This document shows positions 6,830 through 64,000 of a stretch of 64,000 bases of DNA, in pieces; position 1 is the stretch's first letter; each line of letters starts with the position of its first letter. Made by a program: the position numbers and the translations under genes. The DNA is from an uncultured Erysipelotrichaceae bacterium (lineage in GTDB: Bacteria > Bacillota_I > Bacilli_A > RF39 > UBA660). The stretch spans positions 5,540 through 69,539 of the forward strand of contig CACWWC010000009.1 in assembly GCA_902764545.1 (NCBI GenBank). Direction: 5' to 3'. The notes beneath the pieces are model-generated. The model had not been told where the DNA came from and searched no databases. It saw nothing but the letters and a program-made list of their open reading frames with translations.

Positions 6830-6936
6830 TGCATCTCACCCCTGTAAAACATGTGTTGTATTATAACATATTTTTCTTATAATTTAAAGTATTAATAAAA
6901 TATTTTTTGTGAAAAAAAATGCAATAATTGCATTTT

Positions 6937-9900: not shown

Positions 9901-10095
9901 ATTAATTATTAAATCTCCACTGTCATATCGATCTAGTCCCCCAATGATGTTTAATAAAGTTGTTTTTCCACTTCCTGATGGTCCTAAAATAGAAACAAAT
10001 TCATTATCTCTAAAATTTAGGCTTACCTTATTTAGAGCAGTTTGTTTTAAGTCACCAGTTTTATATACTTTAGATATATTCTTAATCTCTAACAT
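6937..10095 (-). CDS. ABC transporter, fused ATP-binding/permease protein (MacB/FtsX-like) with a large extracytoplasmic domain
   Basis: N-terminal Walker A GPSGSGKTT, LSGGQ signature and Walker B LLADEPTGALD. The C-terminus is a FtsX-type 4-TM permease. About 600 aa of Asn/Thr-rich extracellular domain lies in between. Confidence 0.8.
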   Translation of the reverse strand: MLEIKNISKVYKTGDLKQTALNKVSLNFRDNEFVSILGPSGSGKTTLLNIIGGLDRYDSGDLIINNISTKKYKSRDWDSYRNHTIGFVFQSYNLIPHQTILSNVELALTISGISRKERKKRALKALKEVGLKEQAHKKPNQMSGGQMQRVAVARALVNNPDILLADEPTGALDSETSIQVMNLLKKIAKDKLVVMVTHNPELAEEYSNRIVKLKDGKIIDDSNPFEITEKIKVQKYKNLGKASMSLLTAFSLSLNNLLTKKGRTLLTAFAGSIGIIGIALILSLSNGFQKYIDKVQQDTLTSYPLTIEKNTTDITKILLSTMSNDKEKNKKDKKTVKESKNLENMLSSVGTNDMKYFKTYIEKENKKVNKLTTNINYSYEVIPNIYTKNINNELTQLNPSDLFSGLMGGMSASSGMNMNVFQELSSDESMMKKDYSIIAGRFPKKYDEVIIVLPDENHISDILLYSLGLKDSSNVNSMISKIMAGEKIESTKDEKEISYKELLNVELKLINQTDKYKYNDKYNLYEDMSKDKEYMNQLYDNSERLKIVGIVKMKDSNGMSSLMSGVGYTSKLTEHIIKEATNKDIVKKQLEDKEINVFSGKRFDDKSESAGMNFEELISIDTDMLSSAFNVNIDETYISETTEGYMAEINSAITTDTNDAKTLFLTTFSDITKGLLNDYIETHQNAGMPGVATININDVESITNNYLNTENVNNKLQELENKYIIPKEVYKSTFGEIINAFLKTYINISGDSSSVIAKDAVDTMVDTLLNTSGITTSADEFAKQMVEATMKKTVLTKVGELTTRLMETMSTAFNVDQSKIANAFKFNLTEDDIKRIFGAMTNTTITDANSNLISLGYQNLEEPSSISFYFKDFSSKEKFIDFLESFNKKMKKKDKTKVIEYTDFAGVMISSVKIIVDSVSYVLIAFVSISLIVSSIMIGIITYISVLERTKEIGILRAIGASKRNISSIFNAETFIIGFLSGIIGVGVSLLMIIPINTIIHTLTNNKDITAVLPLEASITLIILSTVLTLVGGLIPSRKAAKQDPVLALRSE

Positions 10096-32246: not shown

Positions 32247-32275
32247 AAAAAAAGCCATTATATTGGCTTTTTTTA
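32247..32275 (-). terminator. rho-independent terminator (GCCA-TTATAT-TGGC with T-run)
   Basis: Hairpin immediately after the stop of the 520-aa gene. Confidence 0.5.
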
Positions 32276-33835
32276 ATTAATATTAGCATTTATATTATTA
32301 ATTATATTATTTGTTTCTTGAAAGGCTATGTAATCACCATTATTTTTCCATTCACTATATTGTGTAGAATTCCACTCATCAAAACTTATCCATTCTCCAT
32401 CGTAATAAGTTCTTGTTGCATAGAAGTAATAATTTGAACTATTGTAATTTGATGTATAGAATGTTAAATCACAATATTGTGGTACATCCATATCTGAAGT
32501 TTGTTCTTGATCTTGACCTCTATTAAGTATCATCTTATCAAATTGATTTCTATTGAACTTAAATTGTACCGCTGAGCCTCCTGCAGATTCCGTAATAGAA
32601 CTTCCTGGCCAAGATCCATTGTTATTACCTGTTGCATTATTCCATAAATAATATTTTAAATTATGTTTATCTATGGTAAAAAATCTTACTTCATTTGAAT
32701 TGGCTCTATTAGGATAAATTTTAGGTACAAATATTTTTCCCCAATCATTTGATGTGAATTCTAGGTCTATGGTTTGTTTTCTTTTTATGTCATCATTTAA
32801 CCAAGTAATACTTGATTCTTTTCCATTAGTGAATATTATGTCAGTATAGTTTTCTAGGTATGATTCATTTATGGTATATTTGTATATATTTCTTTCATCA
32901 ATCTTAGTCATATCAATACCTGGCCAGACCATATATGCTGTTTCACTTGTTTTATTATATAAATACATTTTCACTGTGTAGTCTGATTCACTATCATCTT
33001 TATACCAATCTGGTGGCATTTGGAAATATATATTGTAGTTTTGATTATACTTTGCGTATAAAGTAATGTCTCCTGTTTTATTATTTAAGTTTGTTACTTT
33101 GTTGCCGCTGAATGTTGAATCTTCATACCAACCTACAAATGTTGCGTTTGTTTTGCTAGCATCTAGTATTTCAACAGTTTCTCCTTCTGCATAATATGTT
33201 GGCTGATTTTCTGCTTGAACTCCGCCGTTTAGTTCATACGTGATGTTATATAGTCTTGTAAATTTAAATTTAATTGTACCTGTTAAATTTCCATCTGTGA
33301 ATGTTTCATTATTATATTTATATTTTACAATGATATTTTTTGAGGATTTTTCTTCTATCAAATCTCCTATTCCAGTTGATGTATCATCAGTAATAACTTC
33401 TGGTACTATATCAGTGTTAGTATAGGCCCCAAGCTCCTCGTTTCCTGTTGTATCATATATAATTCCATCAAATCTATATTTAACATTATCAGTGTTTTTT
33501 ATTTCTACATTTAAAGATACTTCAGAGTCTTTATCTGCCAATATTATTTCGTTAGTTAATAATGTTTCAACATAATGATTAACTTTATATGAGGAATTTT
33601 CGCTCATACTTTCTAGTTTGACATCAGTTATTATTACACCGTCTTGTAAATCAAGTTCTAAATGCCCGTTTGCATATAAATTATATGTTGTTTGAGCAAA
33701 CGCTATTGTTGTAAATAGTAATCCTATAAAAACTATTGCAATTATTTTTGGTGATACCACTGTATTTCTTTTTCTTCTAATTTTTTTCAAATTATCACTC
33801 TCCTGTGTATGGTTCTGATGTAGCTTGAATTTCAA
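32273..33835 (-). CDS. secreted Asn/Tyr-rich protein (520 aa); last gene of the SipW-like operon
   Basis: Signal-like N-terminus …IAIVFIGLLFTTIAFAQTTYNLYANG resembles those of the small paralogs. Overlaps the upstream gene by 41 nt. Confidence 0.55.
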   Translation of the reverse strand: MKFKLHQNHTQESDNLKKIRRKRNTVVSPKIIAIVFIGLLFTTIAFAQTTYNLYANGHLELDLQDGVIITDVKLESMSENSSYKVNHYVETLLTNEIILADKDSEVSLNVEIKNTDNVKYRFDGIIYDTTGNEELGAYTNTDIVPEVITDDTSTGIGDLIEEKSSKNIIVKYKYNNETFTDGNLTGTIKFKFTRLYNITYELNGGVQAENQPTYYAEGETVEILDASKTNATFVGWYEDSTFSGNKVTNLNNKTGDITLYAKYNQNYNIYFQMPPDWYKDDSESDYTVKMYLYNKTSETAYMVWPGIDMTKIDERNIYKYTINESYLENYTDIIFTNGKESSITWLNDDIKRKQTIDLEFTSNDWGKIFVPKIYPNRANSNEVRFFTIDKHNLKYYLWNNATGNNNGSWPGSSITESAGGSAVQFKFNRNQFDKMILNRGQDQEQTSDMDVPQYCDLTFYTSNYNSSNYYFYATRTYYDGEWISFDEWNSTQYSEWKNNGDYIAFQETNNIINNINANIN

Positions 33836-34349
33836 TAGTTACGTCAGCACTTTTTTTACTGTCTGTTGGAACTTTTATAACTTTTCCTTTTATTGTAATG
33901 GTTGCATTTTTTCCAGGAGCTAATGTAGTTGTGTCATTTCCTTCTTCATCTTTTGTAATTTCCTCAACTTCAAAATATTCTGAATCACACGTTACATTTA
34001 TATTGAAATTAGCCGAAAAGTAGTTACTTTCATTTGCTATTGTATACTTTACTACTGCAGTATCTCCATATCCTTTCATACCCGTTACAGTAAACGATGC
34101 AGTTCTATTTGTTACATCATTACTGTCTAAATTTGCATCGATTGTCATATGACTTGGTTGATTTTCTGGGACTTCGACATCAACAAATTTTACTTTAAAA
34201 TCATCTGCAGATTTTATTCCTGTTGCACGGGCAGTTCCATTAATATTTAAAGTGATATTATTTATTTTAGCATATCCTATTGTTGCTATAGCAATAAGTA
34301 ATAATACTAATGTTAGTAGAAACATTTTATTATTAATTTTTTTTCTCAT
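33795..34349 (-). CDS. small secreted beta-rich protein B (184 aa), TasA/CalY-like candidate, paralog of 36854-37387
   Basis: Start set at MRKKINNK (GAAGGTGA RBS). Signal …LLLIAIATIGYAKINNITLNINGTARA parallels GIGYATINSIPLIINGTATA of the paralog. Confidence 0.55.
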   Translation of the reverse strand: MRKKINNKMFLLTLVLLLIAIATIGYAKINNITLNINGTARATGIKSADDFKVKFVDVEVPENQPSHMTIDANLDSNDVTNRTASFTVTGMKGYGDTAVVKYTIANESNYFSANFNINVTCDSEYFEVEEITKDEEGNDTTTLAPGKNATITIKGKVIKVPTDSKKSADVTIEIQATSEPYTGE

Positions 34350-34400
34350 TTTATCACCTTCTATAATGGAATAAATAGACATTTTTATAATGCCTATTAA

Positions 34401-35669
34401 TTATTTTTTAAATTTATATTCAGCTGTCTTATCTAATTGTTCATAAAGATCTTCATCAGAATTTTTAGTACCCATGATGGCATTTTTATCATCTAGAATT
34501 TCTATTTCTGTTGTATTTTTTATATCTTCATTTATTTTATCGATTGTATAGAATTTTTGTACAGGTCTTTGGTTGGTAATGTCTCTTGCATCGTAATCTG
34601 GAGCTTTTGTCCCCCTAATTTCTGATTCAATATCTACTACTCTAATTGCGTATGTATAAATTACCCCGTCTTCTACAGGAATAAGGAAATATGTTCCAGT
34701 TTTTTCTTTGTTTTCAAGCATTAGTAGTGGTTTTTCTGATGATTCTTTGATTTCAATCATATCTTGAAAACTTTCTACCTTACATATTTGTGATGCACCT
34801 AATGGGTAATCTCCGCTTATTTTTTGAATATATGAGTCATATGCTAGAGTTATTTTTTTAATTCTATTTTCATAAATATCTTGTACTGTTCTAGTTTTCT
34901 TAATATATCTATTAATTAAAACAAACATAACTATTGAACATATTATAAATATTATTCCTGTTATTAATATTAAAATATAATTTTTATCAGGTTTTACTAG
35001 TATTCTACTATCGTTTGAATTAAGAGATGTTCCACTTATATCAACATTAACTGTTTTTGTGGTTAATGGTATTGTAATACTACTTTTAGCATTACTAATT
35101 TTAGATAAATCTATATTCTGATGTGTATTTAGATTTCTGACATTAACATCCATTGATACTTTTAATGTATTTGTTGTTTGTGATAAATCATAAGTACTAA
35201 TAAAACTGCTTAACAAATTATTATATTTATTATAATCAATATCAATATTATAATTTATATTCATTCCATTTTTAGTTATTTTATCTTCTGATGTATATAA
35301 TACTTCATTTTTTGTAAATAAAACTTTATCATTGTCACCATCTGTTACATTAAATTCAGCAATTATTCTATAATTATATGAATACTCAATTCCACTTTGA
35401 AGATCTAACTTATAATTAAAGTTTGCAGGTATATAATCAATTAATGATGCAACATATTGATTACCTCTTTCAATGCACTTAGATTCATAGAAATTATTGT
35501 CTTTTAAACATACACTATAATTAACATTACTATCTTCTTGATAATTAATGTAGTGTCCATTACTTAGTATTTTAAACATTAACAGCGAAAATACACCTAC
35601 TACTAAAAGAATTGTAGGCAATAAGTATAAATTTTTAATATTGATTTTTTCTTTTTTATTATGATTCAT
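34401..35669 (-). CDS. two-TM membrane protein (422 aa) with an extracellular Asn-rich domain and a cytoplasmic C-terminal domain
   Basis: TM at residues ~15-35 and ~232-254. Sits between the peptidase gene and secreted protein B. Confidence 0.5.
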   Translation of the reverse strand: MNHNKKEKINIKNLYLLPTILLVVGVFSLLMFKILSNGHYINYQEDSNVNYSVCLKDNNFYESKCIERGNQYVASLIDYIPANFNYKLDLQSGIEYSYNYRIIAEFNVTDGDNDKVLFTKNEVLYTSEDKITKNGMNINYNIDIDYNKYNNLLSSFISTYDLSQTTNTLKVSMDVNVRNLNTHQNIDLSKISNAKSSITIPLTTKTVNVDISGTSLNSNDSRILVKPDKNYILILITGIIFIICSIVMFVLINRYIKKTRTVQDIYENRIKKITLAYDSYIQKISGDYPLGASQICKVESFQDMIEIKESSEKPLLMLENKEKTGTYFLIPVEDGVIYTYAIRVVDIESEIRGTKAPDYDARDITNQRPVQKFYTIDKINEDIKNTTEIEILDDKNAIMGTKNSDEDLYEQLDKTAEYKFKK

Positions 35670-35672
35670 AAT

Positions 35673-36812
35673 TTAACCTCTCTTTACTCTTTCAAAAAAC
35701 TCATTAATCCATATCGTTGGTTGTCCAATTTTTGCTATTTTTAATTTAACTTTTCCTTTGAATGTTTTTCTTGTAACATATCCTGAATCCTGTTGTATAT
35801 TATTGTCACCTTTTGTATATAATCTTATTTCATCATTTATATCTTCTATTTTTACCACTCTATGAACAATAATTTTTGTATTGGTTGAATATAAAATGAT
35901 ATCCCCTTTTTTTATATCTTTTATATCTTTTGAATTTTTATAAATTATTGCATCTCCTTTATCAAGTGTTCCTGTCATCGAGCCTGAGCCTATCACTAGC
36001 ATTCCATATGTAAATTTGCATGATATTAACATTGCGACTATTGCCATTATTACAATACTTATTATTGTTGAGGCCGCTTTTAATTTTCGATTATGTACTG
36101 TTATTACTTTTTTATCTTTTTCATATACACTCTTTAAAACAATATATATTAATAATGGATAAAGCATTCTACATACTGATTTGAAATATATGTATACATC
36201 AGGAGTAAATGGTATTATATATAAATATATTGTTGTAATAATCCTGTAAATGATATTGGGTACAATCCCAAATTCTTCTGATATATAGTTGAAAAGGATG
36301 TTTGATACAATTGATGCAAAAAATATATAGCCTATTGCTTCTAAAAATTCATTTAAATTGAATATATTGTAAATATTAACATACATTACTAAATCAACTA
36401 GTACAGTAAAGATTAGTGTATTTATTCTTGAAGCATTTGTCTTTTCAGATAAAAATTCATTTCTAATTATTTCAGATGTAATTATTATCAATATTGAAGG
36501 AATAATATAATTTATTATTGTATGAATTCCAAATTTGTAGGCCGACACATAATAACCCACATATATTCCAATTACATAATATAGTACAACATATAGAATA
36601 GCAAATATGGTCATATATTTTGTAATATCTTTTTTATATATTGAGGATTGGTGTGTTCTACTAATTATCTTTCTTGTGATAAATGCATATAGGACTAAAA
36701 TTAATGCAATAAGCATTTTATTGGTTAAAACTTTTGATGTAATTAGAATACTTACAAAAAATATAATTATAAATAATTGTAATGCATATATTTTGTATAA
36801 CCCCTTTTTCAT
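35673..36812 (-). CDS. signal peptidase I, SipW-type (S26B), with a ~245-aa polytopic N-terminal extension
   Basis: The C-terminal 130 aa has GSGSMTGTLDKGD (catalytic Ser) and IIVHRVV (His) and is colinear with SipW/archaeal-type SPase I. It is preceded by 7-8 predicted TM helices of unknown function. Confidence 0.7.
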   Translation of the reverse strand: MKKGLYKIYALQLFIIIFFVSILITSKVLTNKMLIALILVLYAFITRKIISRTHQSSIYKKDITKYMTIFAILYVVLYYVIGIYVGYYVSAYKFGIHTIINYIIPSILIIITSEIIRNEFLSEKTNASRINTLIFTVLVDLVMYVNIYNIFNLNEFLEAIGYIFFASIVSNILFNYISEEFGIVPNIIYRIITTIYLYIIPFTPDVYIYFKSVCRMLYPLLIYIVLKSVYEKDKKVITVHNRKLKAASTIISIVIMAIVAMLISCKFTYGMLVIGSGSMTGTLDKGDAIIYKNSKDIKDIKKGDIILYSTNTKIIVHRVVKIEDINDEIRLYTKGDNNIQQDSGYVTRKTFKGKVKLKIAKIGQPTIWINEFFERVKRG

Positions 36813-36853
36813 AACTTTACTCCTTTTTATGTTTTATTAATTCACGGAGTTTA

Positions 36854-37387
36854 TTAATTTACTGGACTTGCTACTAATCTTGTTGTAATAATTGATTCTT
36901 GATTATTTTCTATTGGTGTTTTTACTACCTCAACTTCTATTGCAAGTGTTGTTGTTGCACCAGCATCCAATAATGTTTTATTTTGATTGTTAGCATCAGG
37001 TGTTCCAAACGTTCTAGTAACTTTGAAATACTCCGCATTTGTATTAGAAGTTCCATCATTTGAAATTTCTATTTCTGCATTTAATCCAGTTGATGAATTT
37101 GTAATATTGAAAATAATTATTGCTTTATCGCCTACTGCCGTTAAATCTTTTGTGGTAAAACTTGCACTTAAACCTTTTGAGATAGGTTCAGGATCAAGCA
37201 CAATATTTTGCGGTCCATCTTGATAACCATTAAATTCTACTTTAAAGTTGTTTTGATTTGGGGAAGCAGTTGCGGTACCATTTATAATTAATGGTATTGA
37301 ATTAATCGTGGCATAACCGATACCCAAAACAATTACAGCGATTAGTGCATATAATGCGATGGATAGACTTTTGCTTTTGTGATTCAC
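36854..37387 (-). CDS. small secreted beta-rich protein A (177 aa), TasA/CalY-like candidate
   Basis: GTG start with an AAAGGA RBS. Signal peptide …LGIGYATINSIPLIINGTATA. First gene of the operon. Confidence 0.55.
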   Translation of the reverse strand: MNHKSKSLSIALYALIAVIVLGIGYATINSIPLIINGTATASPNQNNFKVEFNGYQDGPQNIVLDPEPISKGLSASFTTKDLTAVGDKAIIIFNITNSSTGLNAEIEISNDGTSNTNAEYFKVTRTFGTPDANNQNKTLLDAGATTTLAIEVEVVKTPIENNQESIITTRLVASPVN

Positions 37388-42319: not shown

Positions 42320-43624
42320 ATGATAGATGTAATTGAAGATGTAAGAAATGAATTTAAAGTTAAATTAACAGATAAGTTTGAAGAAGAAGTTATATCATTT
42401 TTGAATACTAATGGTGGTAATATCTACATTGGTGTTAATGATAAAGGTGATATTGTTGGAATAAATGGTAATATTGATTTATTACAAAGGACTATTAAGG
42501 ATAGAATAAAAGATAATATAATGCCATCAACATTAGGATTATATGATGTTGTTGTATTGGAAGAAAACAATAAAAAATATATTAAAATAATTATTGCTCG
42601 TGGTAGTGATGATCCATATTACATTAAAGGTATGGGAATGACACTAGATAGTTGCTTTATTAGAGTTGGTAGTTCAATACAAAGTATGCCTTATGATATG
42701 ATTAATAATAGAGTTAATAAAAGAACTAGGACATCATTAAGGAATATAGTATCCCCTAAACAAGATTTAACTTTTAGTCAATTAAAAATATATTATGAAG
42801 AAAAAGGTTTTAATATTAATAATAATTTTTTAAAGCAATTAGACTTATATACTGATGATGGTAAATATAATTATAATGCTTATTTACTTGCTGACAATAA
42901 TACAATATCTATTAGATTTGGAAAATATGAAGGAACAAATGCTGTTGATTTAATAGAAAATGAAGATTTTGGTAATTGTTCTATTGTTAAAGCAACAAAG
43001 AATATTTTAAATAAGATAGAAATAGAAAATAGGATATTTACAAAAATAGAATACCCTGAAAGAAAAGAAATTAAAATGTATGATTTTGCCGCAGTAAGAG
43101 AAGCAGTTGTTAATGCAATTGTACATAATGATTGGTCTAACGAATATGCTCCAAAATTTGAAATGTTTAGTGATAAATTAGTAATATCATCAAATGGTGG
43201 TATTCAACCATCTACTACAAAAGAAGAATTTTTAGAGGGATATTCATTACCTAAAAATAAAGAACTAATGAAAGTATTTAATGATTTAGATTTAGTTGAA
43301 CAAATGGGTACAGGTATAATAAGAATACTTCAAAGTTATGATAAAAAATCATTTGAATTTTTTCCTAATTTTATTAGAGTTACATTTCCATTTAATAAAG
43401 ATAAATTTAGAGAAGAAGCAAAAGAAATTACCGAATTAACTGAAACTCAAAAATCTATTATTAATTTAATGTTAGATTCACCAACTATTACACAAGAGGT
43501 GTTGTCAAAACTATTAGGTGTTAATATTAGAACTATTCAAAGAAATATAAAAACACTTATTGAAATGGGATTAATTGAAAGAACTGGTGCTACTAAAAAA
43601 GGTGAATGGATAGTAAAAAAATAA
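42320..43624 (+). CDS. AlbA_2/Schlafen-like putative ATP-dependent DNA-binding regulator with a C-terminal winged HTH
   Basis: N-terminal …EEVISFLNTNGGNIYIGVNDKGDIVGI is the AlbA_2 (divergent AAA-4) signature. A HATPase_c_4-like middle region. The C-terminal TQEVLSKLLGVNIRTIQRNIKTLIEMGLIER is a wHTH. Confidence 0.6.
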   Translation: MIDVIEDVRNEFKVKLTDKFEEEVISFLNTNGGNIYIGVNDKGDIVGINGNIDLLQRTIKDRIKDNIMPSTLGLYDVVVLEENNKKYIKIIIARGSDDPYYIKGMGMTLDSCFIRVGSSIQSMPYDMINNRVNKRTRTSLRNIVSPKQDLTFSQLKIYYEEKGFNINNNFLKQLDLYTDDGKYNYNAYLLADNNTISIRFGKYEGTNAVDLIENEDFGNCSIVKATKNILNKIEIENRIFTKIEYPERKEIKMYDFAAVREAVVNAIVHNDWSNEYAPKFEMFSDKLVISSNGGIQPSTTKEEFLEGYSLPKNKELMKVFNDLDLVEQMGTGIIRILQSYDKKSFEFFPNFIRVTFPFNKDKFREEAKEITELTETQKSIINLMLDSPTITQEVLSKLLGVNIRTIQRNIKTLIEMGLIERTGATKKGEWIVKK

Positions 43625-43701
43625 ACCATTAATATGTTAATTTGTAGAATTATTATAGGATTCATGCTAAAATAAAATAGAAGTAGGAGGAAAAAAATAA
43701 T

Positions 43702-44571
43702 ATGGATAATGATGAAAATATGGATTTAATGCTTAGTGATGAAGAATTAGAAAAGTTAGGTATTTCTTTTCACGAGCCAACACCTGAAGAAATAGAAGAA
43801 AAAAGGATAAATAGAGCAAAAGAATTAGAAAGTAAGGGCTTTTTACCGGAAAATGCTGAACTTAATGAAACCATGTCTAGTCCACAAGAATTAGTTGAAA
43901 CAAATCCGAGAAGATTTATTATTGAGGAATGTATTCCTGCATGTCAAGAATTATGGTCAAAAAATATTTATACTTTTATGGTTAGTGATCATTTAAATGA
44001 GGGGCAATGCTGGATAGAAATAATAGTTGATGGACTTTCAGATGAAAATAAGGAAGTTTTCATGAATTTATCTGGTGATGATGTGATAAAATTTTCATAT
44101 CATAGAGGAACTATTAATTTTGGAGTTAAACTTGTTGGAAAGGAAGGACAGTCAAGATTACTAGAACTAGCACAGCAGTTTCAAATGCAAGATGTTCCTA
44201 TAAATCAATCATATATCTCAATGCAGGATTTTCTATTAGAATATTGTGGTTGCTATGATGAAATACCTAATCCAAATTATATAGAAATGAAACCAGCTTG
44301 GGAAATGGAATTGTCGGTAGAACAGATAGCTGATTATATGCAAAAATATGATGAGTGGCAAGAATCACCAGCAAGCAAAAAAACTTTTAAACAATTTAAT
44401 CCAAATAAACTTACAAAATCTGTAAATGAAGTAGCAGAAGAAAAAGGAATGATTATTGACGGCGATAGAGTTTATTTAAGCAAATTTCATTATAAAAAGC
44501 ATCAAAACTATTTGAATTCATTAGAAAATGTGACAAGTTTGGAGGAAAAAACTGGTCATTCAAAAAAATAA
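43702..44571 (+). CDS. acidic hypothetical protein (289 aa)
   Basis: GGAGG RBS, terminator hairpin downstream at 44584-44620. Confidence 0.5.
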   Translation: MDNDENMDLMLSDEELEKLGISFHEPTPEEIEEKRINRAKELESKGFLPENAELNETMSSPQELVETNPRRFIIEECIPACQELWSKNIYTFMVSDHLNEGQCWIEIIVDGLSDENKEVFMNLSGDDVIKFSYHRGTINFGVKLVGKEGQSRLLELAQQFQMQDVPINQSYISMQDFLLEYCGCYDEIPNPNYIEMKPAWEMELSVEQIADYMQKYDEWQESPASKKTFKQFNPNKLTKSVNEVAEEKGMIIDGDRVYLSKFHYKKHQNYLNSLENVTSLEEKTGHSKK

Positions 44572-46480: not shown

Positions 46481-46554
46481 TGGAGCGGATGATGGGAATC
46501 GAACCCACGTAGTCAGCTTGGAAGGCTGAGGTTCTACCATTAAACTACATCCGC
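46481..46554 (-). tRNA. tRNA-Gly (anticodon UCC), CCA encoded
   Basis: Minus strand GCGGATGTAGTTTAATGGTAGAACCTCAGCCTTCCAAGCTGACTACGTGGGTTCGATTCCCATCATCCGCTCCA. Cloverleaf with a CUUCCAA anticodon loop. Confidence 0.9.
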
Positions 46555-47848: not shown

Positions 47849-47887
47849 AAATATTATATAACAAAAAAAGTAGAATTACATCTACTT

Positions 47888-48193
47888 TTAATAATTAACT
47901 GTTCCTGTTCCGTTTTCATCTGTTGCTGACATTTTTTCAATTACAGTAGAAATATTACGTACTTGATTTTCTACTGTTGTGATAAAACTAGGAATTTTTT
48001 CTGCTAACTCATCCCATGATTGTCTAAATTCAGTTGCGGCAACACCATCCCATGCTGTTCCATTTGTTCCAACAGATTCTTTTATTTCTTTATCAATATC
48101 TTGCAAGCTAGTTCTTGTTTCTTCACTTGATGTCTTTATATCTGCTAATATTTCTTTTATTTGTTCAAAATTTAACTCATTTGCTAAAGCCAT
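47888..48193 (-). CDS. WXG100-family protein (EsxA/YukE-like)
   Basis: 101 aa. Central TAWDGVAATEFRQSWDELAEKIPSF aligns with B. subtilis YukE WEGASSEAFADQYEQLKPSF. Confidence 0.75.
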   Translation of the reverse strand: MALANELNFEQIKEILADIKTSSEETRTSLQDIDKEIKESVGTNGTAWDGVAATEFRQSWDELAEKIPSFITTVENQVRNISTVIEKMSATDENGTGTVNY

Positions 48194-48207
48194 TTTATCA
48201 TCTCCTT

Positions 48208-48501
48208 CTAATTAAACGAATTTTTAACTGCTGTTGAAGTTTCATCTAATTCCAACATTTTAGAATTTAATTTATTACAGAAATTTGTCATATATTCTCT
48301 TGCATCAAAAAGTGTTTGTCTATTTTCGTTATATTTTGAAACTAATGCTTCATAGATTCCAACCTCTGATGTTTTAAGAGCTTCAGATAATTCCTTTATT
48401 TTTGCATCTAATGTGTTTATTGCATCAGAATATTTTGCAGTTTGTCTTACTGAGTTATCTAATGTAGCTTGCATTTCTGCTAATGAAAATTTTAATGCCA
48501 T
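48208..48501 (-). CDS. small helical WXG100-like protein (97 aa, no W-x-G)
   Basis: Same size, position and helical-hairpin character as Esx partner proteins. Confidence 0.45.
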   Translation of the reverse strand: MALKFSLAEMQATLDNSVRQTAKYSDAINTLDAKIKELSEALKTSEVGIYEALVSKYNENRQTLFDAREYMTNFCNKLNSKMLELDETSTAVKNSFN

Positions 48502-48584
48502 TGCATATCCTCCTTATATTTATTATTACATTTTTATTTTACTAAAGATATTTTTTCATGTCAATATTTCACGTCAATAACATG

Positions 48585-49904
48585 TCAAGTTAATTTTTCA
48601 GCTTGTTCCTTAGTAATTCTCTTATAATTATTGTCATAATATAACGTACCATTTTCCGTATTTATTTGATAGTATAATACATCATTATCATTGTTTGTTA
48701 CAATGTATTCACCATAACTACTCTTATTTAGATATGTATTAATTCCTTCTTTATCTGATTTTACTTCACTCCATGTTTTCGAATAATCTTTTTCAACATC
48801 TTCGGTTGTTGTTTTTTCATTCGTGACATATCTGCCTTCTCTTAAACTTGCCAAATTGTCTAATTCTGTTTCTTGAACGACTATCTGTCCCGGATCTGCG
48901 GTAAAGTCTTGAGAGCGTGTTAATGCAACTGTTGTATTTTCAGATATAGCATTTCCACTGGCGTCATAATAATAATTATGTCCATCCTTGGCTATTGCAG
49001 ATAAAAATAAAATGTTGCCGGCAGAATTTGTGTATATCTTATATTCTGTTCCGTCTTTTGTATATTTGTATGTTGTTCCTGAACCACTAGCAGTTATAAC
49101 TGTTTGACCAGCATTAGCATCTATCCACTTTGAACTATTTTTTTCAATATCGTTTAATAGTTCAGGATTATCTGAAGCATATATTCGATCACTTTCTGTT
49201 GATTTTAAATCTGTTGAATTCTTGCCATATTTTTCATACATTGCTTTAAGATAGTCTTCATAAGTTGGATATTTTTTTCTCAATGCTGGACGTCTACTAT
49301 ATTCTGATTTTGTTGCTATATTTGAACAATTATCTTTTGCGGCATCACTATAGCTACTCCACGCTGTCCATAGTGTCGCTAATCTTTTATTTATTTCTTT
49401 TATCTTAGTTGAGTTCTCGTCTACCAATTTTTTTATTGGACTAATCATATTATTATATTTTACGTTAATCTCTTCTATCATATTAGGTGTTAATGTTGTA
49501 TTATTATCTTGATAACCTTTTATTTCATTAGATTGCTGTGTGTTTATTGAACTAATCTTATCATTTAATGCACTTGTATTTTTTTCGATTTGATTCTTTA
49601 ATCTTATTAGCTCTTCTTCTTCTTTTTCTCTTGATTTTGTATCTATCTGTTTTTTATACTCTTTCAACAGTTCTAATATTGAATTATAGTCTGTAATTAA
49701 ACTTTTTCCATAACTATTAAAATCTGAACTACCACTGAGAATAGTATTTTGTCCCAAACCATTTCCTTCTTGCGTTTCTTTTTGTAACACTGAAATTCTA
49801 TCAGAAATAACACGCATTGCATTATTGATTGGTGTTTCTGCAATATCATCAATATTGTTATGGTTCAATATCTTATCTAATTCTGTTTCTTTAGTAATTT
49901 CCAT
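48585..49904 (-). CDS. hypothetical protein (439 aa), coiled-coil N-terminal half and C-terminal Tyr/Asp/Gly repeats
   Basis: C-terminal TYKYTKDGTEYKIYTNSAGN…YYYDASGNAI…YYQINTENGTLYYDNNYK resembles YD/cell-wall-binding-type repeats. Confidence 0.45.
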   Translation of the reverse strand: MEITKETELDKILNHNNIDDIAETPINNAMRVISDRISVLQKETQEGNGLGQNTILSGSSDFNSYGKSLITDYNSILELLKEYKKQIDTKSREKEEEELIRLKNQIEKNTSALNDKISSINTQQSNEIKGYQDNNTTLTPNMIEEINVKYNNMISPIKKLVDENSTKIKEINKRLATLWTAWSSYSDAAKDNCSNIATKSEYSRRPALRKKYPTYEDYLKAMYEKYGKNSTDLKSTESDRIYASDNPELLNDIEKNSSKWIDANAGQTVITASGSGTTYKYTKDGTEYKIYTNSAGNILFLSAIAKDGHNYYYDASGNAISENTTVALTRSQDFTADPGQIVVQETELDNLASLREGRYVTNEKTTTEDVEKDYSKTWSEVKSDKEGINTYLNKSSYGEYIVTNNDNDVLYYQINTENGTLYYDNNYKRITKEQAEKLT

Positions 49905-49906
49905 AA

Positions 49907-51247
49907 TTATGCCTCGCCCCCTTCAGTATCTTCTATATCATCTAATATGTTGTTTTCTATAGTTTCATTTTCAATTTCAGATTCTAATAATGATTGCTTT
50001 TCTTTTTGTTCTATGTCTCCTTTTGTTTTTTTTACTTTCTTTGCAACTCCTACTCCTCCTCCTGCTATTCCTGCAAATCCTAATATATATGCAATTGCTG
50101 TTACTGAAAGTGTGCTTCCTTTTTTTATTTCTGTATTAGCTTTTGACTCAGGCCTAATTATTTCCGTTATTAAATTATCAGCTATTGTATTTCTTTTTGA
50201 TATTTCACTTAGTGTGTTATTTAAATCATAAATATCCAATTCATCTTTTTGATCTATAACTAGCGCCATCGCTAATTTATCACTGTTTACAGTATTGTCA
50301 TCTTCAAAGATATCAAATCCATATGTATCTTTTAATATATTTCTTAAAGATTTGTTTTTCTTTGCTTCTTTTTCTAATAATTCTTTTAGTTCATCTACAT
50401 CTTTTTCGGCAACATTTATCTCTCCACCAAGGATATTATTTGTCTCTTCTTCAGAATACCCTGCATTTTGTAATTTTTGTTTTATTAAATCTTCTTCTGA
50501 TAAGTCTACTGATGTATTTAATAGATATGGTTTTAGTTCTTCTTCAGGTATATTTTCTTCTAATTTTTGAATACTTTCTGCTATTCCTGTTGCACCTAAG
50601 GTCGTTGCTGCCCCAATACTTGCTCCTGTACCTATCTTAGATGCGGAACTGTAGTCTACACTTTTTGATAATTGTGGAGAGGATGATGCTATCCTTTTTT
50701 CTGTGGTTGATTTTAAGGATGGTGTTTCAGATTTTGTTGGTGTAATTTTGCTAGTTGATGTATCATAATTTGATCCAATATTATCAAGTCTATCTGAGAT
50801 TTCCTGACTAAATGATTGTGGATCATAATCAGCCACTCCAGTTTGAATTGGTGTATATCCACTTGATGTATAGTTTGGACTATATGATTGATTTGCTGAT
50901 GATGCTGGTGAAGAACTAATATTAGTTGATACACTACCATCTTTTTCCGCATTACTGAATCCATTTAATGCAATATCTACTCGATCAGTTAATGCTGCAT
51001 AATTGTCATTTGTCTGTTTCATTGCTCTTGCAATACCATTATTATTTGACACTTCAAAATCCCCTAAAATATCTGATAAGTAATTGTCATGATTTTTACT
51101 TAATTGAGATAGTTCATCAATTAATGCCCCAAATGTATTTGATATTTCAGTATCGTTTGGCATTTGCTGACTCATATTTGTAAGTGTATTGCTTAAGGAC
51201 TCAAGATCAATGTTATTTTCTATTTGCGGCATTTTTCTTACCTCCAA
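49907..51247 (-). CDS. hypothetical protein (446 aa), helical N-terminal domain, Ser-rich linker, single C-proximal TM
   Basis: TM is TLSVTAIAYILGFAGIAGGGVGVA. First gene of the operon that ends with the WXG100 genes. Confidence 0.45.
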   Translation of the reverse strand: MEVRKMPQIENNIDLESLSNTLTNMSQQMPNDTEISNTFGALIDELSQLSKNHDNYLSDILGDFEVSNNNGIARAMKQTNDNYAALTDRVDIALNGFSNAEKDGSVSTNISSSPASSANQSYSPNYTSSGYTPIQTGVADYDPQSFSQEISDRLDNIGSNYDTSTSKITPTKSETPSLKSTTEKRIASSSPQLSKSVDYSSASKIGTGASIGAATTLGATGIAESIQKLEENIPEEELKPYLLNTSVDLSEEDLIKQKLQNAGYSEEETNNILGGEINVAEKDVDELKELLEKEAKKNKSLRNILKDTYGFDIFEDDNTVNSDKLAMALVIDQKDELDIYDLNNTLSEISKRNTIADNLITEIIRPESKANTEIKKGSTLSVTAIAYILGFAGIAGGGVGVAKKVKKTKGDIEQKEKQSLLESEIENETIENNILDDIEDTEGGEA

Positions 51248-51348
51248 TGCTATATCTTATAAGATTATTTTACCACATCTATTTAAATATAACTACATCT
51301 TGACAACCTATTTTACATAGAAAAAAACTATTTGCATAGTTTTTATTT

Positions 51349-52359
51349 TTATTTATCTTTTTTTATTATTTCTACAAGTTGGATGGGCATCCTTCTAATA
51401 TTTCTAACCGACTTTAATCCATACTTTTTTATGATGTCAAAACTATATTTATCTTTTGGATATTTTTCAATTAGTTTTATTTTCATTGTTTTATTTGCCC
51501 AATTTGGATATGGAGATTTTAAATCTATGTCTACTACTTTGCACTTGTAATAGATACATGAGTATGGTTTTCCAACATATATGTATACAATATCATTTAT
51601 GTTAATATTTCTTGGTTGTTTCCACTCAATAACGTTATTATTATCAAAATAATTGATTATATCAAAATATTTTGGATTTGTTGGTATTACCCACTCATTT
51701 ATCTCTATGGTATAGTTGTGACTTTTATCTATCAGTTCCATTATTTTGGAGTCATCTAATGTATCATCTAGTGTTATTGTTACCCAATATTTTTTATTCA
51801 TGTGATATGCTCTATAAAATCCTTTTTTTGTTACCAAAGTATCAATTTCTTCTTTTGGAAGCTTAATATTAATTACTTCTATCATTTTATCTTCATCGGT
51901 CAATTTATTCTTATTAATGTACATAATAATTCCATACCACTTTTTATTATTAGTATTTCTAAATACTGAATTATCCTCATCATTATCCCATAAAAATTCT
52001 GGGTTATCATCATATTTTTTTTTAATTAAATTGCTTATTCTATTTGCTTGATCACCTATATAGTATTTACTTCTGCAACAATTATTTCTTATCTCTTCTA
52101 ATATCTTAATAAACTCTTCTCTAACCCCATTTACAAATTCTCCTACTTGATTCTCAATTCTATAACTCAAATATTCTTCATTTATTTCCTTATCTATTAT
52201 TTTTCCTTTAAGCTTATTATTTTTATATGTAATTATTATTTCTAAGTTTTTATTTGGTATTGTATATCTATATGTTGGGATGTTTTTTTCGATAATAAAA
52301 CCATAGTCTATAAGTTTATTAAAATCTATTTCACATTTTTTAAATATATCTTCTTCCAT
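51349..52359 (-). CDS. MmcQ/YjbR-family DNA-binding domain protein with extra N- and C-terminal domains
   Basis: KWYGIIMYINKNKL…YRAYHMNKKYWVTITLDD matches the YjbR signature (…HMNKKHW…). Confidence 0.5.
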   Translation of the reverse strand: MEEDIFKKCEIDFNKLIDYGFIIEKNIPTYRYTIPNKNLEIIITYKNNKLKGKIIDKEINEEYLSYRIENQVGEFVNGVREEFIKILEEIRNNCCRSKYYIGDQANRISNLIKKKYDDNPEFLWDNDEDNSVFRNTNNKKWYGIIMYINKNKLTDEDKMIEVINIKLPKEEIDTLVTKKGFYRAYHMNKKYWVTITLDDTLDDSKIMELIDKSHNYTIEINEWVIPTNPKYFDIINYFDNNNVIEWKQPRNININDIVYIYVGKPYSCIYYKCKVVDIDLKSPYPNWANKTMKIKLIEKYPKDKYSFDIIKKYGLKSVRNIRRMPIQLVEIIKKDK

Positions 52360-52371
52360 TTTATCACTACC

Positions 52372-53439
52372 TTATTGCTTTCTTTTTTTTAATATGTTTT
52401 TTATTGATTCTCTTTTTTTTCTAAAATTATTATCACTTTTTATCACTTCATATATTAAATTCCAATTTTGTATAATACTTTCTACAAGTATATTTTTATC
52501 AACTGTATATGTACTTGCTAAAAGAAGAATTACATTTTCTTCTGGAGTTAAGTTATTTGTTGCTAATGAATCATTAAAAAAGAAGTCAATAAGATGGTTT
52601 GTTTTTTCATCTTCTATAGTGCTATCAAAATTCAGCTCTTGAACATCATCATTTTGAATCAAATGTGCTAATAGAGTTGTATCATTTCCTAATGATGGAA
52701 AGTATTTTTCATAATAATCTTCCATGTCAAATAAATAATATAGTTTATTGTTTGAATCAGACAATCTATACATTAAAGTTATTAATTGTACATAAGAATA
52801 ATATATTAACTGAGTGTTATTATTAAGATATTGATGTTTTTTTGATAAAAGTAGTCTATAGAAATGATATGAGATCATTTTTCTTCTTTCTTCATCTTTA
52901 ATATAATATTCATTATTTGTATATGATGATCCTATTTCTGAAAATAACATTGTTGGTAAGCCAAAAATTATACTTCTTATGACATTATCCATTGCAGTTT
53001 TATAAATCCTGATGACTTTTTGGAATTTGACTGGAGTTGAGTAGTATAATTCTGTAAAATTTTCATCTAAATATTGTTTTAATACTGGTACTTCTTCATC
53101 GGGAACTTCTTCTGATTCCAATTGTTCAAGCAACTCTTGTAAGTGTGGATTATCTTTTAGTTTTTGCATTGCTATTTCATATCTATTTTGATTAGTTTTT
53201 ATTATACTTGCATATATATCAAGGGCATATGTGTTAAGTGACTTTTCTAAATAATTTAGTAAATTCTTTATATCCTTTGTTATCTCTACTTTTTTAGCTA
53301 ATTCATGTAGATTAAAATATAACCTTAATTTTGAATAATAATATTTTGAGGTCCTTGGGTCGTACAAATCTTCATCTTTCATTGATCCTTCTTTAAATAA
53401 GTAATTAAACGAGGCGTTGATAAGTTCAAAATATGTCAT
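52372..53439 (-). CDS. hypothetical protein (355 aa)
   Basis: ORF track. Confidence 0.45.
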   Translation of the reverse strand: MTYFELINASFNYLFKEGSMKDEDLYDPRTSKYYYSKLRLYFNLHELAKKVEITKDIKNLLNYLEKSLNTYALDIYASIIKTNQNRYEIAMQKLKDNPHLQELLEQLESEEVPDEEVPVLKQYLDENFTELYYSTPVKFQKVIRIYKTAMDNVIRSIIFGLPTMLFSEIGSSYTNNEYYIKDEERRKMISYHFYRLLLSKKHQYLNNNTQLIYYSYVQLITLMYRLSDSNNKLYYLFDMEDYYEKYFPSLGNDTTLLAHLIQNDDVQELNFDSTIEDEKTNHLIDFFFNDSLATNNLTPEENVILLLASTYTVDKNILVESIIQNWNLIYEVIKSDNNFRKKRESIKNILKKRKQ

Positions 53440-63851: not shown

Positions 63852-64000
63852 TTAGAATGCTTAATTCTATTATATGTTATTTTTCCTTTGTCTTTTTTTC
63901 TTTCTACTTCTCCTAAATATATTTCAAACTTTTCTCTTTCTAAATTCTTCATTAGCCTAGTGAGCTGAATATTTTGTGCTGACGTTCTAACTTTTGGTAT
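63852..64000 (-). CDS. hypothetical protein, C-terminal part only (gene runs off the window edge)
   Basis: Open minus-strand frame …LTRLMKNLEREKFEIYLGEVERKKDKGKITYNRIKHSK* ending at 63852. Confidence 0.3.

What the first reader, a model, noticed from the sequence alone, without database searches (positions are those of the whole stretch)
47888..51247. WXG100 (EsxA-like) pair at the 3' end of an operon with two large unknown proteins, and no T7SS core (EssC) in the window
The 101-aa protein aligns convincingly with YukE/EsxA around the W-x-G turn. Its 97-aa neighbour is WXG100-like without the Trp. Upstream in the same operon are a 446-aa protein (helical N-terminal domain, Ser-rich linker, C-proximal TM) and a 439-aa protein (coiled-coil half plus repeat half). 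This could be an effector or LXG-like toxin module using small Esx-type chaperones, or an orphan Esx locus. The gene order, with large proteins ahead of the WXG genes, is atypical.
Basis: partly seen in the sequence, partly recalled or inferred. Interest (0 to 1): 0.55.

Follow-up and report, generated by a model that had tools for sequence, protein, structure and literature searches.

The report
Conserved type VII secretion cargo cassette
The four genes are a conserved cassette found in uncultured low-GC gut and rumen bacteria: a membrane-anchored repeat protein with an Esx-like head, a second large helical protein with a variable tail, and two small Esx-type helper proteins. It is most likely cargo of a type VII secretion system encoded elsewhere in the genome, which makes it a new variant of a known kind of system.

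Summary
Four minus-strand genes are present: D (441 aa from the ATG at 51232), E (439 aa), a 97-aa protein and a 101-aa protein. The 101-aa protein passes Pfam's WXG100 threshold. No EssC or other T7SS core gene lies in the window or within 10 kb of either end.

The large proteins match no curated family, but they are not orphans.
- D belongs to a family of at least 87 sequence clusters. Its parts are a WXG100-like helical head, a Ser/Thr-rich linker, 1-6 copies of a new ~105-aa helical domain (motif YGFDIFNxDGTVN), a Gly/Ala-rich C-terminal membrane helix, a Lys cluster and an acidic tail.
- E has a conserved helical N-terminal half and a variable C-terminal half.
- The exact order D-E-97-101 recurs in six diverged metagenome loci, each with a conserved promoter in front of the small pair.
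- A sister cassette (two small WXG-like genes, a variable protein, then D) lies 3.4-4.5 kb from an FHA+FtsK EssC gene in four loci.

The best reading is T7SS cargo plus Lap-like targeting factors. Whether D is a surface-anchored protein or a glycine-zipper toxin is open. Whether this genome has EssC could not be tested. Verdict: new variant of a known kind, moderate interest.

The parts
49907..51232 (-). Gene D, 441 aa (ORF listing gives 446 aa from a TTG at 51247). It is a WXG100-headed, repeat-containing protein anchored by a C-terminal TM helix.
   Evidence: ORF. RBS and ATG. Callers use 441 aa. The family has 87 representatives. The AF2 model has two confident domains. pN/pS is 0.22.
50918..51232 (-). 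D residues 1-105: N-terminal helical domain, WXG100-like, ending in a D-x-x-G-x-V tail motif.
   Evidence: pLDDT >90 with helices 10-22, 27-47, 53-59 and 67-98. Conserved in 19 aligned family members. hhalign against the 101-aa family gives 62.6% probability, E 7e-5, over 100 columns. The Dn profile hits the 101-aa protein at 2.3e-4.
50576..50935 (-). D residues 100-219: Ser/Thr-rich disordered linker.
   Evidence: 37% Ser+Thr. pLDDT <50.
50183..50545 (-). D residues ~230-350: one copy of a new ~105-aa helical domain (LKELGFSDEEI...YGFDIFNxDGTVNxDKLALALxxD). Relatives carry 1-6 tandem copies.
   Evidence: Alignment A2 has 13 invariant columns. Copy numbers are. pLDDT ~95. No Pfam match, no PDB sequence match and no Foldseek match.
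50024..50098 (-). D residues 379-403: Gly/Ala-rich TM helix (AIAYILGFAGIAGGGVGVA), followed by KKVKKTK and an acidic tail that runs to the stop codon.
   Evidence: Hydropathy maximum 1.78 at residue 379; the tail has 14 acidic residues. The same G/A-rich TM + KKKK + acidic-tail pattern recurs across the family.
48585..49904 (-). Gene E, 439 aa: conserved helical N-terminal ~190 aa and a variable beta-rich C-terminal half. Its start codon directly abuts D's stop codon.
   Evidence: ORF. Homologues sit next to D in L007, L012, L025, L026, L027, L035, L036 and L039. Alignment A5 shows a conserved N-terminus and a variable C-terminus. No Pfam match. pN/pS is 0.27.
48502..48584 (-). Intergenic region with a sigma-70-type promoter for the small pair: -35 TTGACA at 48564-48559 and -10 TAAAAT at 48541-48536. 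It also holds two further TTGAC repeats upstream and the RBS AAGGAGG.
   Evidence: 11 of 12 consensus match. TTGAC[AG]-N17-TA[AG]AAT, mostly as TTTAGTAAAAT, is conserved in the same gap in all seven type II cassettes.
48208..48501 (-). 97-aa helical protein, a WXG100-like partner that has Leu in place of the family's Trp.
   Evidence: ORF. No family match. Homologues occupy the same position in L025, L035, L036, L039, L048 and L050, and also occur in L044 and L046.
47888..48193 (-). 101-aa WXG100 protein (W48-D-G50) with a conserved C-terminal D-x-x-x-G-T-V-N tail.
   Evidence: Pfam WXG100 32.7 vs 27.3 bits. Hit by the profile of the WXG100 gene next to essC in relatives, 2.3e-9. hhalign gives 93% to that family and 93.5% to family B.
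47862..47887 (-). Terminator-like hairpin (AGTAGA-tgtaat-TCTACT) plus a T-run directly after the 101-aa gene.
   Evidence: Read from the sequence. The scan's G+C rule does not pick it up.
51267..51345 (-). Upstream boundary of the cassette: an AT-rich hairpin with T-run after the yjbR-like gene (~51345-51321), then an extended -10 (TGgTAAAAT, 51275-51267) ahead of D.
   Evidence: Read from the sequence. This is inference only.

Best explanation
The four genes are one instance of a conserved cassette of uncultured low-GC Bacilli. It encodes cargo and targeting factors for an EssC-driven type VII secretion system located elsewhere in the genome.

Proposed mechanism (inferred by analogy with LXG-Lap complexes):
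1. The two small WXG100-type proteins (97 and 101 aa) are made from their own strong promoter.
2. They bundle with the helical N-terminal targeting region of a large partner, either E's ~190-aa helical domain or D's WXG100-like head or both. This forms an elongated helical complex.
3. Its C-terminal tail motif (D-x-x-G-x-V/N on the 101-aa protein, repeated at the end of D's head) is presented to EssC.

Proposed roles:
- D has no signal peptide but has a Ser/Thr-rich stalk, one copy of a new helical repeat domain and a C-terminal TM helix followed by Lys residues and an acidic tail. It would be exported head first and stay anchored in the producer's membrane as a surface protein.
- E, with its conserved N-terminus and variable C-terminus, would be the polymorphic effector.

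Shown here: the cassette's conservation, the domain architecture, the WXG100 membership of the 101-aa protein, and the linkage of the sister cassette and of related WXG100 genes to essC.

Inferred: complex formation, export, topology and the roles of D and E.
For: 1. The 101-aa protein passes Pfam WXG100. It is homologous to the WXG100 gene that sits directly upstream of essC in relatives (2.3e-9; 93% hhalign probability).
2. The order D-E-97-101 recurs in L025, L035, L036, L039, L048 and L050, at about 30% protein identity for D.
3. In roughly 19 loci, D-family genes are preceded by two small genes plus a variable protein C. The small proteins carry W-x-G-P and Y-S-G motifs; in the one locus scanned against Pfam (L017) the Y-S-G protein scored sub-threshold on WXG100 and the W-x-G-P protein had no hit.
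4. An essC-like gene lies 3.4-4.5 kb downstream of D in L017, L031, L040 and L043. The L017 gene was confirmed as a 1518-aa FHA + 2x FtsK_SpoIIIE protein. The other three were identified by phmmer with the L017 protein.
5. L014 has a DUF4176 gene nearby. L025 and L039 have the essC-type small-protein set immediately upstream of D.
6. D's head resembles the 101-aa family over its full length and shares its tail motif.
7. Neither D nor E has an N-terminal hydrophobic segment. D's linker is 37% Ser+Thr and disordered.
8. A G/A-rich TM helix + KKKK + acidic tail is the family rule.
9. E's N-terminal half is conserved and its C-terminal half is variable.
10. The promoter in front of the small pair is conserved.
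11. D and E are under purifying selection.
12. Published precedent: T7SS substrates are typically flanked by one or two small WXG100-related Lap genes (PMC11217815). LXG-Lap-Lap heterotrimers are sufficient for export (PMC10801868).
Against: - No EssC or other T7SS core gene lies in the window or within 10 kb beyond either end, about 84 kb in all. The rest of the genome could not be searched.
- No type II cassette (the window's type) was seen within reach of an essC gene.
- D-E pairs in L007/L008, L012 and L047 have no small pair nearby.
- D and E fail the Pfam LXG test.
- The similarity of D's head to WXG100 is only moderate (62.6% probability). Foldseek finds only generic helical hairpins.
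- The 97-aa family has no detectable profile similarity to any WXG100 group.
- Export of a protein that retains a C-terminal TM anchor has no established T7SSb precedent that I know of (own knowledge).
- No complex prediction could be run.
Confidence: 0.55

Rival explanations
1. D is a secreted membrane-depolarising toxin of the TelE/EsxX/LXG-T2 type. An N-terminal helical targeting domain takes it through the T7SS, and the C-terminal Gly-rich helix inserts into target membranes as a glycine-zipper pore. The small pair act as its Laps, and E is a chaperone, immunity protein or second toxin.
For: D's C-terminal helix is Gly/Ala-rich with two GxxxG motifs. Small-xxx-small zippers are common across the family. 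T7SSb toxins with an N-terminal helical domain and a C-terminal glycine zipper are documented: TelE PMC10434224, EsxX PMC12744356, LXG-T2 PMC12955049.
Against: - No small membrane immunity gene is conserved next to D.
- The helix is followed by a KKKK cluster and a long acidic tail, which looks like a stop-transfer anchor.
- About 15 family members carry 190-350 further residues after the helix.
- A strict GxxxGxxxG occurs in only one of the family members listed.
- D is the conserved partner of the cassette, not the polymorphic one.
- The repeat number varies from 1 to 6, as in surface stalk proteins.
Confidence: 0.15
2. D is not cargo but a lineage-specific accessory or structural component of a variant T7SS. 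It would be an envelope-spanning or surface element analogous to EsaA or TsdI. C or E would be the true substrates, and the small proteins their Laps or EsxA-like partners.
For: D is the constant element of both cassette types and lies 3.4-4.5 kb from essC in four loci. No EssB, EsaA or YukD gene was seen between the cassette and essC. Variant T7SSs with new single-TM and C-terminally anchored components have been described (PMC11217815).
Against: - D has no Sec signal peptide, unlike TsdI.
- D occurs far from any essC in the window and in most loci.
- L013 and L015 carry a second, repeat-less protein with a related head and the same TM/tail next to a second C gene. That looks like cargo multiplicity.
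- The regions downstream of essC were not available.
Confidence: 0.12
3. The cassette does not depend on a T7SS. The helical proteins form an intracellular, membrane-tethered complex (for example a scaffold at the cytoplasmic face). The WXG100-like fold is just a helical-hairpin building block.
For: There is no T7SS core within ~84 kb. The cassette is embedded among housekeeping genes, with htrA upstream and ispH downstream. D-E pairs occur without the small pair. The 97-aa protein has no WXG100 signal.
Against: - The sister cassette is repeatedly close to essC. DUF4176 and essC-type small proteins also lie nearby.
- The 101-aa protein is homologous to the essC-adjacent WXG100.
- With the N-terminus inside, the Lys-rich and strongly acidic tail would have to cross the membrane, against the positive-inside rule.
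- Long Ser/Thr-rich stalks are typical of extracellular proteins (own knowledge).
Confidence: 0.15
4. The WXG100 pair is an orphan Esx locus that merely happens to sit next to two unrelated large genes.
For: The pair has its own promoter and terminator. In L044 a homologous pair lies 3 kb away from a D gene rather than next to it.
Against: The same four genes occur in the same order in six further loci whose D proteins are only ~30% identical to the window's. The pair lies close to D again in L046, where it sits upstream of D with the E-like gene on the opposite strand.
Confidence: 0.03

Closest known systems
LXG toxin + Lap1/Lap2 (or Lap3/Lap4) cassettes of T7SSb (Streptococcus intermedius TelA/TelC; PMC10801868)
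   Same: Both have a large protein with a helical N-terminal region, encoded next to two small WXG100-like helical proteins. Cassettes are often remote from the essC locus. The partner has a variable C-terminal half (E here).
   Different: - There is no Pfam LXG domain in D or E, and no DUF3130, DUF3958 or DUF5082 match. The 101-aa protein has only a sub-threshold DUF5344 hit (17 vs 27 bits).
- The small genes lie downstream rather than upstream, and have their own conserved promoter.
- No recognisable toxin or immunity gene is present.
- There are two large proteins rather than one.
Glycine-zipper T7SSb toxins TelE, EsxX, LXG-T2 (PMC10434224, PMC12744356, PMC12955049)
   Same: Both have an N-terminal helical targeting region and a Gly-rich hydrophobic helix near the C-terminus, and both are associated with small WXG100-like genes.
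   Different: - D lacks LXG.
- D has a Ser/Thr stalk and a repeated helical domain.
- D's helix is followed by a Lys cluster and an acidic tail, or in some relatives by a further domain.
- No adjacent immunity gene is present.
- A strict GxxxGxxxG is rare in the family.
EsxA/EsxB-type WXG100 pairs (S. aureus EsxA, B. subtilis YukE, M. tuberculosis ESAT-6/CFP-10)
   Same: Two adjacent ~100-aa helical-hairpin genes. One has a canonical W-x-G and passes Pfam WXG100.
   Different: - The pair is not next to essC.
- The partner (97 aa) has no WXG100 profile signal and has lost the Trp.
- Pairwise similarity to solved EsxA/ESAT-6 structures is marginal.
Variant T7SS loci T7SSc-j with WXG100-related Laps next to candidate substrates (Garrett, Higginson & Palmer 2024, PMC11217815)
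   Same: The general pattern matches: candidate substrates flanked by one or two small WXG100-related genes distinct from the core EsxA. The diversity lies in Bacillota outside the model organisms.
   Different: A term search of that paper found no mention of Erysipelotrichaceae, Mollicutes, Tenericutes, Acholeplasma or Coprobacillus, and I saw no D, E or YGFDIF-domain family in the sections read. The subtype of the essC seen in L017, L031 and L040 was not determined here.

Membership tests
WXG100 (Pfam PF06013), 101-aa protein | Score above the Pfam gathering threshold over the full ~86-residue model | tested here: met
   32.7 bits vs 27.3, residues 8-93 aligned to model positions 5-86.
WXG100 (Pfam PF06013), 101-aa protein | Central W-x-G turn in a ~100-residue helical hairpin | tested here: met
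   W48-D-G50 in a 101-aa protein. W-x-G is conserved in all 9 family members.
WXG100_ESAT6 (NCBIfam TIGR03930), 101-aa protein | Score above the curated cut-off | tested here: not met
   33.7 bits vs 44.85.
T7SS substrate (functional class), 101-aa protein | An EssC/EccC FtsK-type ATPase in the same genome, and EssC-dependent export | not testable with these tools
   None was found in the window or within 10 kb of either end. Homologues sit directly upstream of essC in L017, L031 and L040.
WXG100, 97-aa protein | Pfam/NCBIfam score, or profile similarity to WXG100 groups; W-x-G turn | tested here: not met
   No WXG100 hit. hhalign probability is <5% against all four WXG-like groups. The window has Leu where 7 of 9 relatives have Trp. 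The protein is helical and of the right size, so it resembles the family but membership is not shown.
LXG domain (Pfam PF04740), D and E | Score above the gathering threshold on an N-terminal ~200-aa helical domain | tested here: not met
   No LXG hit for D or E at E<=1, for 60 D-family members or for 9 E-family members. Only the 101-aa protein gives a sub-threshold LXG hit (18.5 vs 26.5 bits).
Lap targeting factors (DUF3130/DUF3958/DUF5344/DUF5082), 97- and 101-aa proteins | Pfam membership in one of the four Lap families | tested here: not met
   The only signal is a sub-threshold DUF5344 hit for the 101-aa protein (17.0 vs 27 bits).
Lap targeting factors, 97- and 101-aa proteins | Physical binding to the N-terminal helical domain of the adjacent large protein, and requirement for its export | not testable with these tools
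   No multimer prediction or experiment was available.
Glycine-zipper membrane toxins (TelE/EsxX type), D | C-terminal GxxxGxxxG-type zipper required for toxicity, with a cognate immunity gene adjacent | tested here: inconclusive
   The window helix has two GxxxG motifs but no triple. The family is rich in small-xxx-small motifs. No conserved adjacent small membrane protein was seen. Toxicity is untestable here.
D family (new; WXG-like head + YGFDIF repeat + C-terminal TM) | All three modules present, in the same order as in relatives | tested here: met
   Dn profile 3.4e-32 and Drep profile 1.2e-38 on the window protein. TM + KK + acidic tail.

The most novel reading that the evidence does not exclude
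The D family is a previously unrecognised class of T7SS-exported proteins that stay tethered to the producer by a C-terminal membrane anchor. The cell surface of reduced, possibly thin-walled or wall-less gut Bacilli would then be decorated by head-first type VII export of tail-anchored proteins. These carry a new helical repeat domain with an EF-hand/dockerin-like DG-x-V-N loop. The adjacent polymorphic proteins (C or E) would be docked or delivered by them.
Probability: 0.2. Interest if true: 0.7.

Novelty: new variant of a known kind. Interest (0 to 1): 0.5.

Why it matters
T7SS biology rests on a few cultured Firmicutes and mycobacteria. This finding defines two uncharacterised protein families and a new ~105-aa domain that recur in uncultured low-GC Bacilli MAGs and metagenome contigs whose sample names point to gut and rumen sources. 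They occur in two fixed cassette layouts tied to WXG100 genes and, in a sister layout, to essC.

If D is exported and retained by its C-terminal anchor, type VII secretion would be extended from releasing soluble helical bundles to installing surface-anchored proteins. If D is instead a glycine-zipper toxin, the known toxin repertoire would extend into lineages that dominate some gut communities but cannot yet be grown.

The conserved internal promoter also gives a concrete handle on how helper and cargo levels are set.

Tried and rejected
- **Word-indexed homologue searches.** Searches with D, E and the 101-aa protein returned only the species' own clusters, apart from one 83%-identical WXG100 cluster. 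That suggested orphans. The full HMMER scan overturned this for D.
- **Loci scan with the full-length D alignment.** It failed for lack of a conserved stretch. The repeat-domain alignment worked.
- **Metagenome scan with the E alignment.** It found nothing.
- **Viral contigs.** No D relatives were found, so a phage origin was rejected.
- **PADLOC.** Only weak coiled-coil matches appeared, so an anti-phage defence reading was rejected.
- **Rfam over 44-54 kb.** Only a tRNA was found.
- **PDB profile searches.** The searches with D's head and repeat domain gave coiled-coil or designed-protein noise.
- **Foldseek with the D model.** Nothing below E = 4.6.
- **Foldseek with the E model.** It was poor (pLDDT 52). 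Its Foldseek hits to OspA-like beta-sheets have TM-scores of ~0.1 and were disregarded.
- **Profile comparison of C and E, and of the 97-aa family with groups A, B, e1 and e2.** No relationship was shown.
- **Diversifying selection on D or E.** Rejected within the species (pN/pS 0.22-0.27).
- **Walking along the source contig to look for essC.** Blocked, because only proteins encoded in the window can be looked up.
- **EF-hand/dockerin reading of the DG-T-V-N loop.** This rests only on inspection. Pfam gives no support.

Full report
**What is in the sequence**

Four minus-strand ORFs occupy 47888-51247. The first gene's real start is the ATG at 51232. GGAGG at 51245-51241 lies 8 nt upstream of it, and the TTG that the ORF listing reports overlaps that ribosome-binding site. 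Gene callers on six other assemblies of the same species also give 441 aa. I call the genes D (441 aa), E (439 aa), w97 and w101.

- E's ATG abuts D's stop codon.
- An 83-nt gap separates E from w97, and 14 nt with an RBS separate w97 from w101.
- A hairpin with a T-run follows w101. Another follows the upstream yjbR-like gene.
- The region is about 26-29% G+C, like the rest of the window.
- Across the window and six strain-level copies, pN/pS is 0.22 for D and 0.27 for E, and the small proteins are invariant. All four are therefore real, constrained genes.

**Family tests on the four proteins**

- w101 passes Pfam WXG100 (32.7 vs 27.3 bits) and has W48-D-G50.
- It fails the stricter NCBIfam TIGR03930 cut-off (33.7 vs 44.85).
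- Its pairwise matches to solved ESAT-6, EsxA and SAG1039 structures are only marginal (E 0.04-0.2).
- w97, D and E match nothing in Pfam or NCBIfam.
- None of the four has a credible PADLOC match; w101, w97 and E gave only weak coiled-coil hits and D none.
- Neither D nor E hits LXG.

**No secretion machine nearby**

The large ORFs of the window are housekeeping genes: DnaE, GlmS, BipA, iPGM and an ABC-FtsX fusion. Pfam-annotated gene lists cover nearly the whole window and 10 kb beyond each end. They show no FtsK_SpoIIIE, FHA, YukD or EssB.

**D is not an orphan**

Word-indexed searches found only the species' own clusters. A full HMMER scan of 1.84 billion representatives found 87 relatives of D, 60 of them below 1e-10. 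They share one architecture:
- a ~100-aa helical head;
- a low-complexity Ser/Thr/Gly linker;
- one to six tandem copies of a ~105-aa domain, with consensus LKELGFSDEEI...LRxxLxxxYGFDIFNxDGTVNKDKLALALLMDxKNxxDxYDL;
- a Gly/Ala-rich hydrophobic helix;
- a Lys cluster and an acidic tail.

About 15 members carry a further 190-350 residues after the helix.

An AF2 model built with a 60-sequence alignment gives two confident domains: the head (residues 10-100, pLDDT >90) and the repeat domain (~230-350, pLDDT ~95). The linker and tail are disordered. The repeat domain has no Pfam match, no PDB sequence match and no Foldseek match, so it appears to be undescribed. In the window protein the linker is 37% Ser+Thr, the hydrophobic helix is at 379-403, and no N-terminal hydrophobic segment could serve as a signal peptide.

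**Comparative context**

One scan of GTDB species genomes and one of metagenome contigs with the repeat-domain alignment gave 37 loci. The named sources are uncultured Bacilli, 'Mollicutes', 'Tenericutes' and Erysipelotrichaceae MAGs. Local profiles built from the neighbours resolve two layouts.

*Type I* is A-B-C-D:
- A is a ~100-aa protein with W-[WFY]-G-P.
- B is a ~103-aa protein with Y-S-G. In L017 it scores weakly on WXG100.
- C is a 240-930-aa protein of variable length.
- About 19 loci have all four genes. L033 has A-B-D without C.
- In L017, L031, L040 and L043 an essC-like gene lies 3.4-4.5 kb downstream of D. It is preceded by its own pair of small proteins. One of them (e2) passes Pfam WXG100 in L017 (28.9 bits). 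The other (e1) has no family match.
- The L017 gene is a 1518-aa FHA + 2x FtsK_SpoIIIE protein by Pfam. The other three were identified by phmmer with it.
- L014 has a DUF4176 gene upstream.

*Type II* is the window's layout, D-E-w97-w101:
- It recurs with all four genes in the same order in L025, L035, L036 and L039, and in L048 and L050. The D proteins are only about 30% identical to the window's.
- L025 and L039 also carry the essC-type small-protein set immediately upstream of D.
- D-E pairs without the small genes occur in L007/L008, L012 and L047.
- L046 and L044 have the w97-w101 pair near a D gene in other arrangements.

The association of the WXG pair with D and E is therefore not chance. 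The 'atypical' order is the conserved state of this cassette type.

**Relationships among the small proteins and D's head**

- The profile of the essC-adjacent WXG100 hits w101 at 2.3e-9, and the B profile hits it at 2.2e-6.
- hhalign of the w101 family gives 93.5% probability to B, 93% to the essC-adjacent family and 84% to A.
- D's head aligns to the w101 family over 100 columns at 62.6% probability, E 7e-5.
- Both end in the same motif: an acidic residue, a few residues, then G-x-V(N). In w101 it reads TDENGTGTVNY. In D it reads AEKDGSVST. It is conserved in both families. I take this as moderate evidence that D carries a fused WXG100-type unit with a shared tail signal.
- The w97 family shows no profile similarity to any other group. 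It is a ~100-aa helical family with W-x-S-x-E-x-G-x-Y and a conserved Phe three residues from the C-terminus. The window copy has Leu for Trp.

**E**

Nine E homologues share a helical N-terminal ~190 residues, including a KE-EEL--LK coiled-coil segment. They then diverge completely in the C-terminal half. This is the pattern of polymorphic effectors. No member hits LXG or any toxin family. The only model I could make was from a single sequence and is poor (pLDDT 52). It shows long helices to ~225 and two beta-meanders. Its Foldseek matches are not meaningful.

**Transcription**

The E/w97 gap holds TTGACA-17-TAAAAT, an 11 of 12 consensus match. The same TTGAC[AG]-N17-TA[AG]AAT, mostly as TTTAGTAAAAT, sits in the corresponding 77-116-nt gap of all seven type II cassettes. 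This is a phylogenetic footprint for an internal promoter. The small pair is therefore not simply the 3' end of the D-E operon. The window and L025 each have two extra TTGAC copies upstream.

**Interpretation**

The published picture is that T7SS substrates are encoded with one or two small WXG100-like Lap proteins (PMC11217815). These bind the substrate's helical N-terminal domain into a heterotrimer that is sufficient for export (PMC10801868). Such cassettes often lie away from the core locus.

The window's cassette works like that, but it fails the membership tests for LXG and for the four Lap families. I therefore file it as a new variant, not as a member.

For D, the following features argue that the bulk of the protein is outside the cell and the tail is inside:
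- no signal peptide;
- a Ser/Thr stalk;
- a variable number of repeat domains;
- a TM helix followed by Lys residues and an acidic tail.

That topology requires a non-Sec export route for the N-terminus, and the WXG-like head supplies a candidate.

The main alternative is a TelE/EsxX-like glycine-zipper toxin. The Gly-rich helix suggests it. The charged tail, the post-helix domains in some relatives and the lack of an adjacent immunity gene weaken it.

A T7SS-independent role cannot be excluded, because the genome's EssC status is unknown.

**Limits**

- Caps on the genome and metagenome scans, and the rule that only window-encoded proteins can be looked up, prevented a search of the rest of this genome.
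- No multimer prediction was possible.
- E's structure is unresolved.
- The organism is known only as an uncultured low-GC bacterium seen in ENA, NCBI and Logan assemblies. Its nearest D-E relative (L007) has the same flanking synteny, but there htrA and ispH are directly adjacent and D-E sit elsewhere.

Noticed in passing
window 46484-46554 (-), and L002/L004 downstream of the 128-aa gene: A tRNA gene (71.7 bits) lies just past the ispH/128-aa genes. The sequence beyond it differs between strains. L004 has a serine recombinase, Mob_Pre relaxase and DUF6870. L002 has a transglutaminase-core protein. The window has an XRE-type HTH gene plus a small membrane protein. This looks like an integration hot spot.
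   Followed up: partly
window 51349-53439 (-) compared with L007 3960-4805: In the closest relative (L007), htrA is directly followed by ispH. In the window, six genes sit between them: a 355-aa protein with no family, a 336-aa YjbR-domain fusion, and D, E, w97 and w101. In L007, D-E lie about 5 kb further on, next to the signal-peptidase cluster. The cassette has therefore moved between lineages.
   Followed up: partly
window 32273-37387 (-); L007 12799-18022: This cluster holds a type I signal peptidase (S26), DUF5305, two ~180-195-aa proteins with N-terminal hydrophobic segments, and a Listeria-Bacteroides-repeat (Flg_new) protein. It resembles SipW/TasA-type fibre loci. In L007 it lies immediately downstream of D-E.
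   Followed up: no
L051 906-1655 (about 8-9 kb beyond window position 64000): A 249-aa protein with an ADP-ribosylating exotoxin domain (PF03496) sits next to a copper P-type ATPase and an HMA chaperone gene.
   Followed up: no
window 48559-48584 (-); L025 intergenic E/w97: Three TTGAC[AG]TG-like direct repeats are spaced 11-13 nt apart, and the last one serves as the -35 element. The triple occurs in the window and in L025 but not in the other five cassettes. It may be a regulator binding site.
   Followed up: partly
L013 6211-7865 and L015 6233-7851: A second C-type gene is followed by a ~297-aa protein. That protein has a D-like helical head, an acidic low-complexity region, and the same Gly/Ala-rich TM helix and acidic tail, but no YGFDIF repeat. 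It is a 'minimal' version of the D architecture.
   Followed up: no
window 4016-10095 (-): A 937-aa protein with no Pfam match lies directly downstream of a 1052-aa fused ABC ATPase/FtsX permease (MacB-like).
   Followed up: no
window 42320-44571 (+): A 434-aa Schlafen/AlbA_2 + HATPase_c_4 + HTH protein is followed by a 289-aa protein with no family. They sit in the strain-variable stretch downstream of the cassette and could be a defence-type pair.
   Followed up: no
L039 1287-4049; L014 3451-5583: Further uncharacterised candidate T7SS cargo lies beside D cassettes. L039 has a 712-aa and a 203-aa protein ahead of an essC-type small pair. L014 has a 390-aa helical protein followed by DUF4176 and a 222-aa protein. 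None has a Pfam match apart from DUF4176 itself; the 222-aa protein was not scanned.
   Followed up: partly
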